Positions 16,338 to 20,614 of a stretch of DNA of 53,290 nt are shown here, piece by piece. The stretch is from the UHGV virus genome UHGV-0119950; one strand, given 5' to 3'. Under the pieces are notes generated by a model. The model was not told the origin of the DNA. It did no database searches and saw nothing but the letters and a program-made list of their open reading frames with translations. The stretch's first letter is position 1; the number at the start of each line of letters is the position of its first letter. Origin of the DNA: a virus. The position numbers and the translations under genes were made by a program.

Positions 16338-16825
16338 AAACTATCCAGTTATCTGAGCGTGAGCTTTTCATGATTTTCAACATGCTGACGCCGCCCTACG
16401 CAGTCAGCGACACCCACACAGACGAGTTCAACGAATTGCGTAACAAAGTCTTTTACGCTCTGCGTGATGCTCAGAACGATGAACCTGTAAGTAATCGTGA
16501 TGAGTTGCCGCTGGACTATCTTCAAGGCCACAAAGACGGACTTGAGTGGGCTGCACAACTGGCTGAGGCTAATCACCCACAAACCGGCGATTGGCTTTAC
16601 GATGACCCGACAGAGCTTGCAAAGGCGATACGCAAGGGGCCGGATATGCCATTACCCAATGGCAACTCTCCGGTGATTCCGAATGGTTGGGTAATGGTGC
16701 CTGTTGAGCCAACAGAAGCGATGATTAACGCTTACAGAGGTGCACTTTATTCAGGGGAGTCGGCTGTCTCCTGTATTGATTTGTACAAGGCCATGATTGC
16801 AGCAGCGCCACAGCAGGAGGAATGA
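16334..16825 (+). CDS. Hypothetical protein
   Basis: 163-aa ORF. GTG start overlaps the upstream stop (GTGA). Confidence 0.6.
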   Translation: MKTIQLSERELFMIFNMLTPPYAVSDTHTDEFNELRNKVFYALRDAQNDEPVSNRDELPLDYLQGHKDGLEWAAQLAEANHPQTGDWLYDDPTELAKAIRKGPDMPLPNGNSPVIPNGWVMVPVEPTEAMINAYRGALYSGESAVSCIDLYKAMIAAAPQQEE

Positions 16826-17082
16826 TGGATCAACTTCTGCAATACGCCACCAATCGGATTATAGAACTGGAAAACCTTCTGCTGGTGAATGTTGAGGAAA
16901 CGGTCTGGCCAGCAGAGGTTCAGATGGTTTTTAGTCAAATCGAAAACGCCGGGAGTTTCCCGGCGCACCACCAGCGCCGATTGCAGCACCACATCAACAG
17001 AATGTGGCTGGAAAAAATACCGGTTACTTCGATTATTGCCGCAGCGCGCTCGCTGGCAGATGCAATGGAGAAATACGCGTGA
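16822..17082 (+). CDS. Hypothetical protein
   Basis: 86-aa ORF, ATGA coupling. Confidence 0.55.
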   Translation: MMDQLLQYATNRIIELENLLLVNVEETVWPAEVQMVFSQIENAGSFPAHHQRRLQHHINRMWLEKIPVTSIIAAARSLADAMEKYA

Positions 17083-19160
17083 GAAATAGCGAAATCATTG
17101 TTGATAATTTTGCTGGTGGCGGCGGTGCTTCCACTGGAATTGAGATGGCGACTGGCCGCAGCGTGGACATTGCGATTAACCACGATCCGAATGCCGTTGC
17201 GATGCACACGACAAACCACCCCAATACACTGCATTATTGCGAATCTGTCTACGATGTCAGGCCGAAGGTAGCGACCGCCGGGCGTCCGGTGGCGCTGGCG
17301 TGGTTCTCGCCGGATTGCCGTCACTTTTCAAAAGCCAAAGGTGCGAAGCCGGTAGAGAAAGCGATCCGGGGTCTGGCCTGGGTAGTTCTGCGCTGGGGGC
17401 TGGATGTAAAACCCCGGGTGATGAAACTGGAGAACGTCGAAGAATTTAAAACGTGGGGCCCTTTGCTCGCTGGTGAAATGAGGCCAGACCCGGCCCGTGC
17501 TGGAGAAAATTTTGAGGCGTTCATTGGTATGCTGACTACTGGCATCCGGGCTGACCACCCGGCACTGGCGGAGTGCTGTGAATTTCTGGGTATTTCTCTT
17601 GATAGTGAAGACGCCGCGAGGCTGATCAAAGGGCTGGGCTACATCGTCGAGTATCGCGAGTTGCGCGCCTGCGACTACGGTGCGCCGACGATCCGCAAGC
17701 GATTCTTTATGATTATGCGTTGTGACGGGAAACCGATTGTGTGGCCTGAGCCAACACATGGCGATCCGAAATCACCGGCTGTCCAGGCTGGTAAGCTGGC
17801 ACCGTGGCGCACAGCTGCGGAGTGCATAGACTGGACAATTCCGGCTCCATCGATATTCGATCGCAAAAAGCCGCTGGCAGAAAATACCCTTAAGCGCATC
17901 GCGCGCGGCATCCAGCGATTTGTTATCGACAGTGCGTCGCCGTTTATCGTGAAGTGCAACCACACCAGCAGCCGTTCAAGTTATGATTGTTTCCGTGGGC
18001 AGCCACTGGAAGAACCCCTGCAAACGATCACGAAAAAGCATGGTTACGCCGTCGCAGTACCACATCTGACGAAGTTCCGTACCGGCGCAACCGGGCAGGA
18101 AGTCACCGAACCTGTACCGACTGTAACAGCTGGCACGTCGGCGCGCCCGGGTGGGAATGGTCATGCGCTTGGTATCGTTGAAGCTGCGCTGACTCCGTTC
18201 CTGGCTGGTAATGGCGGCAGTGAGTACCAGGCTAAGCCGCGCCCGCTGGATAAACCAGCTCACACTATACTGAAACAATCCCGGGCATGTGTCGTTGCGC
18301 CGGTTATCGCCCGACAGTTTGGCGCCAGCACCGGCCACCGCGCAGATGAGCCGAACGCGACTATTACCGCTGGTGGCGGCGGTAAATCGCAACTTGTTAC
18401 ATCGACACTGATCCAGATGGGATACGGGGAAAGGCCAGGTCAGGAACCTCGCGTTCTCCAGATCGAAAAACCGTTAGGGACAGTAACCGCTGGTGGAAAC
18501 AAGTTCGCCGTGGCCAGCGCATTTCTGGCGAAGCACTACGGCGGCAACTATACGGGACCGGGCGTCGGGCTGGATGAGCCGACTCACTCAGTTACGACGG
18601 TTGATCATCATGCGGTTGTTGCGGCACATCTAATGGTGAACAACACCGGGCATCCTGGCGGCTCCGTGGACTCTCCAGCGCATACCGTTACAACAGGAAA
18701 TCACCATGCTGTAGTGACTTCTCATCTTGTGCATTTGCGAGGGTTCTGCAAAGACGGTCAAAAAATGGATCAGCCGGTGCCAACGATTACCGCCGGAGGC
18801 CAGCATGTTGGGGAGGTGAAAACCACTCTGGCAGTTGAGCACTACAACGAACAGCGCGCGCAACAGACGTTGGCGTTCCTGCGTGAATATTGCGGCGAAG
18901 ATTGTACCGGGCTGGTGGATATCGACGGGATCACATATCGTATTGTTGATATCGGAATGCGCATGCTGCAACCGCATGAGCTTTACCGCGCGCAGGGCTT
19001 CCCGGACTGGTACATCATCGATCGGGATTATCGCGGCGTGAAGTATGCAAAGGATAAGCAGGTTGCCCGCTGCGGTAATGCTGTGCCGCCACCGTTCGCC
19101 GAGGCTCTGGTAAGGGCCAATTTACCCGAACTTTGCCAGCCGAAAGAAATGGCAGCGTAA
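17079..19160 (+). CDS. DNA (cytosine-5) methyltransferase, 693 aa, with expanded repeat-containing variable region
   Basis: Motif I DNFAGGGG, motif IV FSPDCRHFS, motif VI KLENV, QGFPDWY and motif X GNAVPPPF. GTG start overlaps the upstream stop (GTGA). Confidence 0.92.
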   Translation: MRNSEIIVDNFAGGGGASTGIEMATGRSVDIAINHDPNAVAMHTTNHPNTLHYCESVYDVRPKVATAGRPVALAWFSPDCRHFSKAKGAKPVEKAIRGLAWVVLRWGLDVKPRVMKLENVEEFKTWGPLLAGEMRPDPARAGENFEAFIGMLTTGIRADHPALAECCEFLGISLDSEDAARLIKGLGYIVEYRELRACDYGAPTIRKRFFMIMRCDGKPIVWPEPTHGDPKSPAVQAGKLAPWRTAAECIDWTIPAPSIFDRKKPLAENTLKRIARGIQRFVIDSASPFIVKCNHTSSRSSYDCFRGQPLEEPLQTITKKHGYAVAVPHLTKFRTGATGQEVTEPVPTVTAGTSARPGGNGHALGIVEAALTPFLAGNGGSEYQAKPRPLDKPAHTILKQSRACVVAPVIARQFGASTGHRADEPNATITAGGGGKSQLVTSTLIQMGYGERPGQEPRVLQIEKPLGTVTAGGNKFAVASAFLAKHYGGNYTGPGVGLDEPTHSVTTVDHHAVVAAHLMVNNTGHPGGSVDSPAHTVTTGNHHAVVTSHLVHLRGFCKDGQKMDQPVPTITAGGQHVGEVKTTLAVEHYNEQRAQQTLAFLREYCGEDCTGLVDIDGITYRIVDIGMRMLQPHELYRAQGFPDWYIIDRDYRGVKYAKDKQVARCGNAVPPPFAEALVRANLPELCQPKEMAA

Positions 19161-19173
19161 TGTATAATCCCTC

Positions 19174-19377
19174 TCAAAGCATCGAGAGGGATTCGTTTTT
19201 CTTCGGTATCTCGCGCTGCGGACTGTAGAGTTTCCCGTTAATAACTATCCAGCTACCCTTAATCCACTTCGTGACCTGCTGTCGATTAACGCCCATATGT
19301 CTGGCGAACTCTGATTGATTTCCCTGGTGGTGAATAGCAATGTAATCGGTCAAGGTAAGAGCATTCATGTTATTCAC
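19174..19377 (-). CDS. Small HTH DNA-binding protein, 67 aa (Aca-like position)
   Basis: HTH NQSEFARHMGVNRQQVTKWIKG. Overlaps the stop of the upstream 156-aa gene by 8 nt. Confidence 0.75.
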   Translation of the reverse strand: MNNMNALTLTDYIAIHHQGNQSEFARHMGVNRQQVTKWIKGSWIVINGKLYSPQREIPKKNESLSML

Positions 19378-19840
19378 CTTTTACAGCAGGGTTGACGATC
19401 AGATAGCTGGTACCGTGCTCGTCTTCCATTTCTACAGCGTCGAAACCAAGATGGGCGGCAGCGCGACCTCTCAGGCGCTGCATTTCCCAACTAGCTGCTG
19501 CAAACTCATCCGCTGAATCAGTCCGAGGTGACAGAATATCAGCAAACGCGTCGTCACACTCATCGTCAGCCAGTGCGTATGCCAGCGCTTCCAGTTGTTC
19601 TTCGTCTGCTTCAACTTCACTACGCAGGAAACTTATGACATCAGCGATACGGTCGTGTAAGTCTCCATTATCTGCGATGATTTCAACGTTGTAGCTGTAA
19701 ACAAAATTACCGTGAGAGCCTGCAACATCGAAATCTGAGCAAGCAAAGATACCATCAAAAATATTGTCACCAGACATTGCGAAAGCGCCAACTTTGATTA
19801 CTGGAGCGGTGTTTTCGTATGAGCCGTGAAACAGTTTCAT
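19370..19840 (-). CDS. Hypothetical 156-aa protein with N-terminal FHGS motif and acidic centre; candidate anti-defence / ADP-ribosyltransferase-like
   Basis: MKLFHGSYEN..., acidic EVEADEEQLEALAYALADDECDD, C-terminal LGFDAVEMEDEHGTSYLIV. First gene of a two-gene operon with the HTH gene. Confidence 0.7.
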   Translation of the reverse strand: MKLFHGSYENTAPVIKVGAFAMSGDNIFDGIFACSDFDVAGSHGNFVYSYNVEIIADNGDLHDRIADVISFLRSEVEADEEQLEALAYALADDECDDAFADILSPRTDSADEFAAASWEMQRLRGRAAAHLGFDAVEMEDEHGTSYLIVNPAVKGE

Positions 19841-20362: not shown

Positions 20363-20380
20363 TACGCAATGGAGGCCACT

Positions 20381-20614
20381 ATGAAAGTTGAGTTAACTAT
20401 TGATCGAACAAAGAAACTTCCTGATGGTGCAGTGCCAGCACTTGAAAAAGAATTGCTTAAACGACTGAATAATCAGTATGAGAATTGCAGCCTGACAATC
20501 CGTCGCGCCGGATCAGATGGACTGAGCGTTTTCGGTGGCGATAAGGACGATAAAAAGAAAATTGAAAAGATCCTCCAGGAGACCTGGGAAAGCGCTGACG
20601 ACTGGTTTTACTAA
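20381..20614 (+). CDS. dinI: DinI-family protein
   Basis: MKVELTIDRTKKLPDGAVPALEKELLKRL...KKIEKILQETWESADDWFY parallels E. coli DinI (…RISEILQETWESADDWFVSE, from memory). SD GGAGG. LexA box upstream. Confidence 0.9.
   Translation: MKVELTIDRTKKLPDGAVPALEKELLKRLNNQYENCSLTIRRAGSDGLSVFGGDKDDKKKIEKILQETWESADDWFY

What the first reader, a model, noticed from the sequence alone, without database searches (positions are those of the whole stretch)
18003..18839. C5-cytosine methyltransferase with an eightfold-reiterated module in its variable region
The enzyme has normal catalytic motifs at both ends: FAGGGG, SPDC, ENV, then QGFPDWY and GNAVPPPF. Between them lie eight consecutive modules of roughly 27-39 aa (counted from the copies listed), sharing the pattern acidic-x-P-x-x-T-[IV]-T...hydrophobic strand:
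- LEEPLQTITKKHGYAVAVPHL
- VTEPVPTVTAGTSARPGGNGHALGIVEAAL
- LDKPAHTILKQSRACVVAPVI
- ADEPNATITAGGGGKSQLVTSTLI
- IEKPLGTVTAGGNKFAVASAFL
- LDEPTHSVTTVDHHAVVAAHL
- VDSPAHTVTTGNHHAVVTSHL
- MDQPVPTITAGGQHVGEVKTTL

The target-recognition domains of m5C methyltransferases contain a conserved T-[LIV] element. Multispecific Bacillus phage enzymes (SPR, phi3T, rho11s) carry several such domains in tandem. Eight tandem copies suggest either a multispecific anti-restriction methylase or a novel repeat scaffold.
Basis: partly seen in the sequence, partly recalled or inferred. Interest (0 to 1): 0.5.

Follow-up and report, generated by a model that had tools for sequence, protein, structure and literature searches.

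The report
Prophage cytosine methylase with repeated recognition modules
A prophage DNA cytosine methyltransferase carries eight tandem 33-residue copies of the short element that normally helps such enzymes read their DNA target, and thousands of phage relatives carry 1 to 12 copies, so it may protect phage DNA at many different sequences, although this has not been tested.

Summary
The gene (window 17079-19160, + strand, 693 aa) encodes a C5-cytosine DNA methyltransferase. Eight in-phase copies of D/E-x-P-x-x-T-[IV]-T lie between motifs VIII and IX, 32-48 aa apart; shuffled sequences give 0.19 copies on average. A ninth copy next to motif IX is degenerate.

The repeat belongs to a large phage and prophage family with 1-12 modules per protein. 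Protein length rises by about 33 aa per module. The modules fall into conserved types. Each type occurs once per protein, and the types keep the same order in 98.8% of co-occurrences. Close relatives gain or lose single modules by in-register recombination. The array is about as conserved as the catalytic core.

The last two family modules align colinearly with the two T[LV] elements nearest motif IX of SPbeta MtbP, a known multispecific Bacillus phage enzyme. The gene has no restriction partner and sits beside an AcrIF11-like anti-CRISPR gene.

My best reading is an orphan anti-restriction methylase with an expanded array of mini recognition domains. Multispecificity is inferred only. AlphaFold2 gave no confident fold for the array, and I found no characterised member. 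It is a new variant of a known kind.

The parts
17079..19160 (+). Gene for a 693-aa orphan C5-cytosine DNA methyltransferase. The GTG start overlaps the TGA stop of the upstream ORF (GTGA).
   Evidence: (identical to P0001)
17109..17126 (+). Motif I, FAGGGG (AdoMet binding)
   Evidence: invariant in 126 homologues
17307..17318 (+). Motif IV, SPDC. The catalytic Cys is preceded by Asp rather than the usual Pro.
   Evidence: S77 P78 D79 C80 invariant; aligned to GPPC of 3g7u
17430..17438 (+). Motif VI, ENV
17685..17702 (+). Motif VIII variant, PTIRKR
   Evidence: aligned to APTIRTR of 3g7u
18003..18098 (+). Module 1 (aa 309-340), PLEEPLQTITKKHGYAVAVPHLTKFRTGATGQ; type K, a type that usually comes first in the array
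18099..18242 (+). Module 2 (aa 341-388, long variant); lost or decapitated in some close relatives
18243..18338 (+). Module 3 (aa 389-420), PLDKPAHTILKQ...; the only copy with T-I-L instead of T-[IV]-T
18339..18458 (+). Module 4 (aa 421-460); type B, with the ...LIQMGYGERPGQ tail
18459..18566 (+). Module 5 (aa 461-496); type D, with the ...AFLAKHYGG tail
18567..18662 (+). Module 6 (aa 497-528); type Z, with the head ...SVTTVDHHAVV
18663..18761 (+). Module 7 (aa 529-561); type C, with the ...HLVHLRG tail. Modules 6 and 7 are fused into one hybrid module in E. coli H6 and FLI21.
18762..18863 (+). Module 8 (aa 562-595); a diverged relative of type A, the family's usual penultimate module (AGG.H.GEV...)
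18864..18956 (+). Degenerate ninth module (aa 596-626). QTLAFLREYCGEDCTGLVDI takes the place of the family's EPLHTVTTKDRFGLVTV. It is followed by the conserved beta-hairpin that leads into motif IX.
   Evidence: helix 591-605, strands 612-621
18960..19013 (+). Motif IX region, RMLQPHELYRAQGFPDWY
19074..19097 (+). Motif X, GNAVPPPF

Best explanation
This is an orphan C5-cytosine DNA methyltransferase of a lambdoid prophage. It lies among early-region genes, between the O/P-like replication genes and ninB. It belongs to a very large phage and prophage family. In this family the target-recognition region between motifs VIII and IX was built by tandem amplification of one small element of about 33 aa. 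That element carries the P-x-x-T-[IVL]-T ('TL motif') head plus a hydrophobic segment and a Gly-rich linker. Ordinary C5 methyltransferases have a single copy next to motif IX.

The modules have diverged into conserved types. Their scaffold residues (P5, T8, G31) are shared by all types, while residues at position 7 and positions 12-15 are specific to each type.

Proposed mechanism (inferred): each intact module is a mini target-recognition domain. One module at a time packs against the catalytic domain over the flipped cytosine, so the enzyme methylates several different short sequences. The phage or prophage DNA is thereby protected in advance against many host restriction systems. This is how the Bacillus phage enzymes SPR, phi3T, rho11s and SPbeta work.

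Lineages change their repertoire by gaining or losing modules through in-register recombination.

Shown here: the enzyme class, the repeat, its family-wide variability, type conservation and collinearity, purifying selection, the absence of a restriction partner, and the anti-defence neighbour.
Inferred: catalytic activity, one specificity per module, the docking of one module at a time, and the anti-restriction role.
For: Enzyme class:
- PF00145 scores 71 bits, and the protein matches phrog_23072 and phrog_116.
- All core motifs are present.
- The AlphaFold2 core has block-mean pLDDT mostly 75-98 and matches 3g7u, DNMT1, M.HhaI and M.HaeIII.

Repeat:
- There are 8 copies against 0.19 expected.

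Family:
- 2,580 representatives of 50%-identity clusters match at E<=1e-30.
- 350 phage records carry a match.
- Proteins carry 1-12 modules. Median length rises from 495 to 825 aa with module number, and the spacing mode is 33-34 aa.

Modules are old and individually conserved:
- Mean identity between modules of one protein is about 25%, and the median best within-protein match is 34%.
- 99.9% of 2,063 modules have a closer counterpart in another protein; the representative set is clustered at 50% identity. The median best match is 62%.
- Each type occurs once per protein (one exception in 1,035).
- Types keep the majority order in 98.8% of 2,564 co-occurrences.
- There are 213 distinct architectures among 269 proteins.

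Unit gain and loss between close relatives:
- P0081 lacks a 41-aa, in-register segment (tail of module 1 plus head of module 2), which leaves one hybrid module in place of modules 1 and 2.
- P0105 has one extra module of 37 aa.
- E. coli H6 has a hybrid of modules 6 and 7.
- E. coli FLI21 has a hybrid of modules 2 and 3 and a single module in place of 6 and 7.

Selection:
- Among 119 close relatives the array is 85.7% identical to the query, against 90.2% and 87.1% for the two core parts.
- Position 7 and positions 12-15 vary strongly between types but are conserved within a type.

Link to genuine recognition domains:
- The family's C-terminal profile aligns colinearly with SPbeta MtbP residues 330-431 through both of its T[LV] elements.
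- PMC8936443 states that Bacillus phage methyltransferases with several tandem target recognition domains have several recognition sequences.

Context:
- No restriction enzyme is nearby.
- An AcrIF11 homologue with a helix-turn-helix partner lies immediately downstream.
Against: - There are no activity or specificity data for this protein or for any family member in the literature I could search. REBASE could not be consulted.
- AlphaFold2 with a 126-sequence alignment gave pLDDT 20-45 for residues 290-588, so the fold of the modules and any docking geometry are unknown.
- The module profile alone matches the MtbP elements only at E = 0.11. The E = 7e-5 for the longer alignment is partly carried by motifs IX and X.
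- The strict collinearity and the single occurrence of each type fit a single fixed repeat scaffold equally well.
- The module that adjoins motif IX sits where ordinary enzymes carry their TL element. It is degenerate in this protein, so the enzyme would have to rely on upstream modules.
- Motif IV is SPDC rather than the usual PC.
Confidence: 0.5

Rival explanations
1. The modules form one composite DNA-binding scaffold. They stack into a single repeat domain (beta-hairpin stack or solenoid) that lies along or wraps the DNA. This would give high affinity, processivity and a short or relaxed specificity. Copy number would tune the footprint, not the number of targets.
For: - Spacing is regular at 33-34 aa, and P, T, G and hydrophobic positions are conserved.
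- The order of module types is strict, and each type occurs once per protein, as in structural repeat proteins.
- Repeat proteins tolerate unit insertions and deletions.
- Phage methyltransferases with short GpC-type specificities exist (PMC8256090).
Against: - AlphaFold2 usually models regular solenoids confidently, yet it gave pLDDT 20-45 here.
- The best-conserved residues are polar or loop-type (P, T, G), and they are the same as the TL element of recognition domains.
- The last two modules align with the two T[LV] elements of a genuinely multispecific enzyme.
- Type-specific conservation is concentrated around the TL head.
Confidence: 0.28
2. The enzyme is essentially monospecific. One or two modules do the recognition, and the rest are inactive 'pseudo-domains' or linker material carried along by descent.
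For: - Module 2 is dispensable in close relatives.
- Module 9 is degenerate.
- Module 3 has T-I-L instead of T-I-T.
- Inactive pseudo-domains were described in Bacillus phage enzymes (Lange et al. 1991; recalled from memory, not checked with the tools).
Against: - The array is about as conserved as the catalytic core among close relatives (85.7% against 87-90%).
- Module types are conserved across the 50%-identity cluster representatives. This is not expected of dead spacer sequence.
Confidence: 0.14
3. The 33-aa repeats are ankyrin-like helical repeats that act as a protein-protein or DNA scaffold and are unrelated to target-recognition domains.
For: - A full-length family profile hit ankyrin-1 (E = 3e-7), ankyrin 1n11 and designed ankyrin-repeat proteins in the PDB, in phase over six repeats.
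- The period is the same (33 aa), and both carry a P-L dipeptide and hydrophobic residues at similar offsets.
Against: - 9 of 500 period-33 shuffles of an ankyrin consensus score as high or higher, up to 49 bits, so the E-value is inflated by periodicity.
- The single-module profiles (A1, A4) and a second array profile (A5) gave no ankyrin hit.
- The module HMM does not hit an eightfold ankyrin consensus.
- Pfam ankyrin models do not hit the protein at E<=1.
- The last module continues into the beta-hairpin typical of C5-methyltransferase recognition domains.
Confidence: 0.05

Closest known systems
Multispecific C5-cytosine methyltransferases of Bacillus phages and prophages (M.SPRI, M.phi3TI / M.SPbetaI = MtbP, M.rho11sI, M.H2I, M.(phi)BssHII, BceSV methyltransferase)
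   Same: - Both are orphan, phage-borne C5 methyltransferases.
- Several short segments of about 26-48 aa, each with a P-x-x-T-[LIV] head, lie in tandem between motifs VIII and IX.
- The family's last two modules align colinearly with the two MtbP elements nearest motif IX.
- The family here shows colinear arrays with presence/absence differences between relatives. From memory (Wilke et al. 1988), the same holds for the Bacillus enzymes.
- The presumed role is anti-restriction.
   Different: - This protein has 8 modules plus 1 degenerate one, and the family has up to 12. MtbP shows two clear heads plus one degenerate head (my reading of the sequence). From memory, the Bacillus enzymes have two to five specificities.
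- It belongs to a different clade of the catalytic core. Motif IV is SPDC and motif VIII is PTIRKR, whereas MtbP has FPCPTFS and QNRER.
- The hosts are mainly Proteobacteria and Actinobacteria phages, though Paenibacillus members exist.
- No specificity has been measured.
Monospecific C5 methyltransferases with one TL-motif recognition domain (M.HhaI, M.HaeIII; prophage CP-933R enzyme, PDB 3g7u)
   Same: - The catalytic fold and motifs are shared.
- 3g7u is the closest solved structure and shares the APTIR.R form of motif VIII.
- One TL-type element sits about 25-30 aa before motif IX. An example is DKPSPTITT in the monospecific enzyme printed in PMC11954522.
   Different: - These enzymes have one such element, not an array.
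- In this protein the element next to motif IX is the degenerate one.
Short-motif or low-specificity phage methyltransferases (GpC-type phage C5 methyltransferases linked to TET enzymes; M.EcoGII for adenine)
   Same: They are phage or prophage orphan methyltransferases thought to protect DNA broadly (PMC8256090; PMC5778455).
   Different: No repeat array has been described for them in the papers I read.

Membership tests
C5-cytosine DNA methyltransferase (Pfam PF00145) | The profile match exceeds the curated cut-off | tested here: met
   71 bits against a cut-off of 22. The NCBIfam dcm superfamily model TIGR00675 scores 47.7 bits, below its cut-off of 100.65, so the protein is a divergent member.
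C5-cytosine DNA methyltransferase (Pfam PF00145) | Motif I FxGxG, motif VI ENV, motif IX (R..E....QGFP) and motif X (GN.V), in the canonical order | tested here: met
   FAGGGG, ENV, RMLQPHELYRAQGFPDWY and GNAVPPPF are present in order. They align to 3g7u and DNMT1.
C5-cytosine DNA methyltransferase (Pfam PF00145) | Catalytic Cys in the Pro-Cys motif IV | tested here: met
   The Cys is present and invariant, but as S-P-D-C, with Asp in place of the second Pro. This is a family-wide variant.
C5-cytosine DNA methyltransferase (Pfam PF00145) | Catalytic-domain fold | tested here: met
   The AlphaFold2 core is confident. Foldseek matches 3g7u, DNMT1, HhaI and HaeIII with probability 1.00.
C5-cytosine DNA methyltransferase (Pfam PF00145) | Transfers a methyl group to C5 of cytosine in DNA | not testable with these tools
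   This needs expression and methylation mapping.
Multispecific phage C5 methyltransferases (SPR / phi3T / SPbeta type) | Several recognition-domain-sized segments, each with a T-[LIV] element, in tandem between motifs VIII and IX | tested here: met
   There are 8 modules of 32-48 aa, plus 1 degenerate one.
Multispecific phage C5 methyltransferases (SPR / phi3T / SPbeta type) | The segments are homologous to experimentally defined recognition domains | tested here: inconclusive
   The family C-terminal profile aligns colinearly with MtbP through both T[LV] elements (E = 7e-5, partly carried by motifs IX and X). The module profile alone reaches only E = 0.11. Module profiles find no match in solved structures.
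Multispecific phage C5 methyltransferases (SPR / phi3T / SPbeta type) | Relatives share a colinear order of domains and differ in which domains are present | tested here: met
   98.8% of type co-occurrences keep the same order, with 213 architectures among 269 proteins. Close relatives differ by in-register unit insertions and deletions.
Multispecific phage C5 methyltransferases (SPR / phi3T / SPbeta type) | Each domain confers one target specificity, and deleting it removes only that specificity | not testable with these tools
   No methylation data exist for this protein, and I found none for any relative.
Multispecific phage C5 methyltransferases (SPR / phi3T / SPbeta type) | Phage-borne with no cognate restriction endonuclease | tested here: met
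   The context is a lambdoid prophage and no restriction enzyme is nearby.
Ankyrin repeat | Match to ankyrin profiles beyond what a shared 33-aa period would give | tested here: not met
   Only one of five profiles hit ankyrins in the PDB. 1.8% of periodic shuffles score as high. Pfam ankyrin models give no hit.

The most novel reading that the evidence does not exclude
The family is a natural combinatorial library of 33-aa DNA-reading cassettes. Each module type would encode one short methylation target, so enzymes with 8-12 modules would be far more multispecific than any methyltransferase described. Phages would re-tool their anti-restriction repertoire by in-register gain and loss of cassettes. 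The conserved types would then give a readable cassette-to-motif code, usable for predicting and engineering C5 methylation specificity.
Probability: 0.3. Interest if true: 0.8.

Novelty: new variant of a known kind. Interest (0 to 1): 0.55.

Why it matters
- 5-methylcytosine motifs are poorly mapped in bacteria, and phage-borne C5 methyltransferases are mostly annotated only as 'DNA cytosine methyltransferase'.
- This family is very common in prophages of Salmonella, Klebsiella, Enterobacter, Citrobacter and E. coli, and in phages of Pseudomonas, Vibrio, Gordonia and Mycobacterium.
- If each module is a recognition cassette, these enzymes would be broad anti-restriction devices. They would affect phage host range, phage therapy and the transfer of DNA between clinical strains.
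- The typed, colinear modules would then give a direct way to relate short peptide modules to DNA motifs.
- The natural series of variants that differ by single modules makes the question testable with a few clones.
- If the array is instead a single scaffold, it is an undescribed repeat domain in a very abundant enzyme family.

Tried and rejected
- AlphaFold2 on the single sequence gave mean pLDDT 31 and was useless.
- AlphaFold2 with a 126-sequence alignment resolved only the catalytic core. The array stayed at pLDDT 20-45, so the choice between separate domains and a solenoid could not be settled. Foldseek against the PDB returned only methyltransferase cores.
- Module profiles (A1, A4) and an array profile (A5) found nothing meaningful in the PDB.
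- Ankyrin hits from the full-length family profile were examined and put down mainly to the shared 33-aa period.
- Tandem Repeats Finder found no repeat at the DNA level.
- Mean-field DCA on 1,028 modules was dominated by gap and alignment effects. It hinted that positions 4-7 couple with positions 13-15, but it could not decide between strand and helix.
- Nine literature searches found no characterised member and no description of this repeat. The key papers on multispecific enzymes (PMC1171429, PMC450048) are not in the held library. Supplementary sequences of the phage C5 methyltransferases in PMC8256090 are not held.
- The local Pfam copy gave no hit for the AcrIF11-like neighbour. The match came from the PDB and from precomputed annotation.
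- Megablast found no near-identical phage and no near-identical E. coli genome. The best E. coli DNA identity was 79.8%.
Full report
**1. What is in the sequence**

The longest ORF across the finding runs from 17004 to 19160 on the + strand (718 aa). Gene callers in public assemblies start the identical protein at the GTG at 17079. This gives 693 aa (P0001). That GTG overlaps the TGA stop of an 86-aa upstream ORF as GTGA, and homologues begin at the same point. All numbering below uses the 693-aa form.

The protein matches Pfam PF00145, the C-5 cytosine DNA methylase family, with 71 bits against a cut-off of 22. It also matches the PHROG families phrog_23072 and phrog_116, both annotated 'DNA methyltransferase'. 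Six motifs are present in canonical order:
- motif I, FAGGGG
- motif IV, SPDC
- motif VI, ENV
- motif VIII, PTIRKR
- motif IX, RMLQPHELYRAQGFPDWY
- motif X, GNAVPPPF

The closest solved structure is 3g7u, a putative methyltransferase of E. coli prophage CP-933R.

**2.

P..[TS][IVL][TLK] occurs eight times, at aa 313, 345, 393, 425, 465, 501, 533 and 566. The spacings are 32, 48, 32, 40, 36, 32 and 33 aa. Twenty thousand shuffles gave a mean of 0.19 copies and never more than 4. A profile built from the eight copies recovers each with E = 1e-11 to 1e-15.

The copies share about 25% mean identity (31-41% for the best within-protein match). There is no repeat at the DNA level, so the duplication is ancient.

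A ninth unit lies directly before motif IX. There the family consensus EPLHTVTTKDRFGLVTV aligns without gaps to QTLAFLREYCGEDCTGLVDI of this protein. The Pro and Thr residues of the head are lost.

**3. The repeat is a property of a large family, and its copy number varies**

A search of 1.84 billion cluster representatives found 2,580 proteins at E<=1e-30. tblastn found matches in 350 phage records, from phages of Gordonia, Mycobacterium, Pseudomonas, Arthrobacter, Vibrio, Klebsiella and others. Close relatives (82-91% identical) are annotated in Enterobacter, Citrobacter, Salmonella, Klebsiella and E. coli. More distant relatives occur in Burkholderia, Pectobacterium, Janthinobacterium, Paenibacillus and other genera.

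I built an iterated profile of the module. It has 32 positions and the consensus SVDEPLPTVTAGNHHALVAAFLAKYYGGSVGQ. Across 388 family members it finds 1 to 12 modules per protein. The spacing mode is 33-34 aa. Median protein length rises steadily from 495 aa with one module to about 825 aa with twelve.

**4. The modules are differentiated, conserved and colinear**

Of 2,063 modules, 99.9% have a closer counterpart in another protein than in their own. The representative set is clustered at 50% identity. The median best identity is 62% between proteins and 34% within a protein.

Clustering gives recurrent module types. Each type occurs once per protein, with one exception in 1,035. Types hold preferred positions:
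- J, S and K come first.
- B comes early.
- D, E, F and H lie in the middle.
- C and L lie at about 0.7 of the array.
- A is penultimate.
- I, Q and R come last, adjoining motif IX.

Among 2,564 co-occurrences of two types, 98.8% follow the majority order. There are 213 distinct architectures among 269 proteins. The query reads K.. B D Z C (A-like), followed by the degenerate last unit.

Positions P5, T8 and G31 are nearly invariant in all modules. Positions 7, 12-15, 21, 24-25 and 28-29 vary strongly between types but are conserved within a type.

**5. Modules come and go by in-register recombination**

- P0081 (89% identical) lacks 41 aa running from the tail of module 1 to the head of module 2, leaving one hybrid module.
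- P0105 (82% identical) carries one extra 37-aa module after module 3.
- P0092 lacks the 12-aa head of module 2.
- E. coli strain H6 (79% identical, 7 modules) has one hybrid made of the head of module 6 and the tail of module 7.
- E. coli strain FLI21 (72% identical, 6 modules) has a hybrid of modules 2 and 3 and a single module in place of 6 and 7.

The array is nevertheless under constraint. Among 119 close relatives it is 85.7% identical to the query, against 90.2% for the N-terminal core and 87.1% for the C-terminal core.

**6. Relation to genuine target-recognition domains**

I retrieved MtbP (M.SPbetaI, 443 aa) from Bacillus phage SPbeta. That it is one of the classical multispecific enzymes rests on my own knowledge. 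PMC8936443 states that Bacillus phage methyltransferases with several recognition sequences carry several target recognition domains in tandem.

MtbP shows two clear heads 46 aa apart, SPTLTTMGGGH and EPAFTVNTIDRHGV, the second lying just before motif IX. A profile of the family's C-terminal part aligns colinearly with MtbP residues 330-431. In that alignment EVRAFL (the segment of type A) pairs with EVRAVL, and EPLHTVTTKDRFG (the last module) pairs with EPAFTVNTIDRHG (E = 7e-5 for one target, partly carried by motifs IX and X). The module profile alone reaches only E = 0.11.

A monospecific enzyme printed in PMC11954522 has a single DKPSPTITT element before motif IX. The smallest family members keep only type A plus the last module (P0256).

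The simplest history is tandem amplification of the TL-motif core of the recognition domain. The homology to experimentally defined domains is plausible but not proven.

**7. Structure**

AlphaFold2 without an alignment failed. With 126 diverse homologues, residues 1-290 and 590-693 were mostly confident. Residues 290-588 had pLDDT 20-45. Both prediction jobs are now used.

The low confidence may reflect misalignment of variable arrays. It may also reflect modules that have no fixed arrangement. It does not discriminate between the models.

A full-length family profile unexpectedly hit ankyrin repeat proteins in the PDB (E = 3e-7). The alignment rests on a shared 33-aa period, a P-L dipeptide and hydrophobic positions. 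Nine of 500 period-33 shuffles of an ankyrin consensus score as high. Three other profiles give no ankyrin hit, and Pfam ankyrin models do not match. I treat this as mainly a periodicity effect and keep it as a low-probability rival.

**8. Context**

The window is a lambdoid prophage. O-like and P-like replication genes lie upstream, and DinI, NinB, RusA and a Q-like antiterminator lie downstream. No restriction endonuclease is nearby, so the enzyme is an orphan.

Immediately downstream, on the opposite strand, is a homologue of the anti-CRISPR protein AcrIF11 (PDB 6kyf, E = 1e-11) with a small helix-turn-helix partner. This fits an anti-defence cluster.

**9. Mechanism and rivals**

My best reading (confidence about 0.5) is an anti-restriction methyltransferase whose modules are alternative mini recognition domains. 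Each would supply the TL element and type-specific contact residues for one target, as in the Bacillus phage enzymes.

The main rival (0.28) is a single repeat scaffold that binds DNA collectively and gives a short or relaxed specificity. Smaller rivals are a mostly inactive array (0.14) and an ankyrin-like scaffold (0.05).

A methylome of the cloned gene and of the natural single-module variants would decide between them.

**10. Novelty**

Tandem recognition domains in phage C5 methyltransferases have been known since the 1980s, and only from Bacillus phages and prophages in the papers I could read. An array of 8 modules here and up to 12 in the family is new to me. So are its typed colinear modules, its ongoing unit turnover and its abundance in Gram-negative and actinobacterial phages. 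I found no such description in nine literature searches, and neither Pfam nor NCBIfam has a model for the module. I could not consult REBASE. I rate it a new variant of a known kind.

Noticed in passing
window 19370-19840 (-) and 19174-19377 (-): The 156-aa protein directly downstream of the methyltransferase is a homologue of the anti-CRISPR ADP-ribosyltransferase AcrIF11 (PDB 6kyf, E = 1.1e-11; precomputed PF26151). It is followed by a 67-aa helix-turn-helix protein (HTH_28 / YdaS-like). This arrangement resembles an acr-aca pair. Together with the methyltransferase it suggests a small anti-defence cluster.
   Followed up: partly
window 16822-17082 (+): An 86-aa ORF is translationally coupled to the methyltransferase (GTGA overlap). 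It matches phrog_16025 ('DNA methyltransferase') and only the last 65 residues or so of other methyltransferase models (phrog_111 positions 275-341 of 345; PADLOC PDLC03332 positions 230-294 of 297). An ORF of similar size (85 aa) precedes the gene in L004 and in E. coli H6. In E. coli FLI21 the upstream gene is a truncated MT-A70 methyltransferase. It is either a remnant or an accessory protein.
   Followed up: partly
homologues P0131, P0173, P0193, P0248, P0254 (not in the window): The longest family members (931-1,113 aa) carry an intein, with a Hint domain and, in three of the five, a LAGLIDADG homing endonuclease domain. It begins at about residue 78-98, close to the SPDC catalytic-cysteine motif (aa 77-80 in the query).
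   Followed up: no
window 17307-17318 (aa 77-80): Motif IV is S-P-D-C-x-H-x-S-K-A-x-G, invariant in 126 homologues, instead of the usual G-P-P-C-Q-x-F-S. An Asp precedes the catalytic Cys. The consequence for catalysis is unknown.
   Followed up: no
homologue P0342 (914 aa): One family member has an N-terminal LexA-type DNA-binding domain fused to the methyltransferase.
   Followed up: no
family profile A2, positions 352-558: The repeat array gives in-phase matches to ankyrin repeat proteins in the PDB (E down to 3e-7). Controls indicate that the shared 33-residue period inflates the score.
   Followed up: yes
window 20369-20614 (+) and about 20.0-20.3 kb: A DinI-family protein (Pfam, 94 bits) lies downstream of the anti-defence genes. 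In the identical locus L004 there is also a homologue of the DNA polymerase III theta subunit.
   Followed up: no
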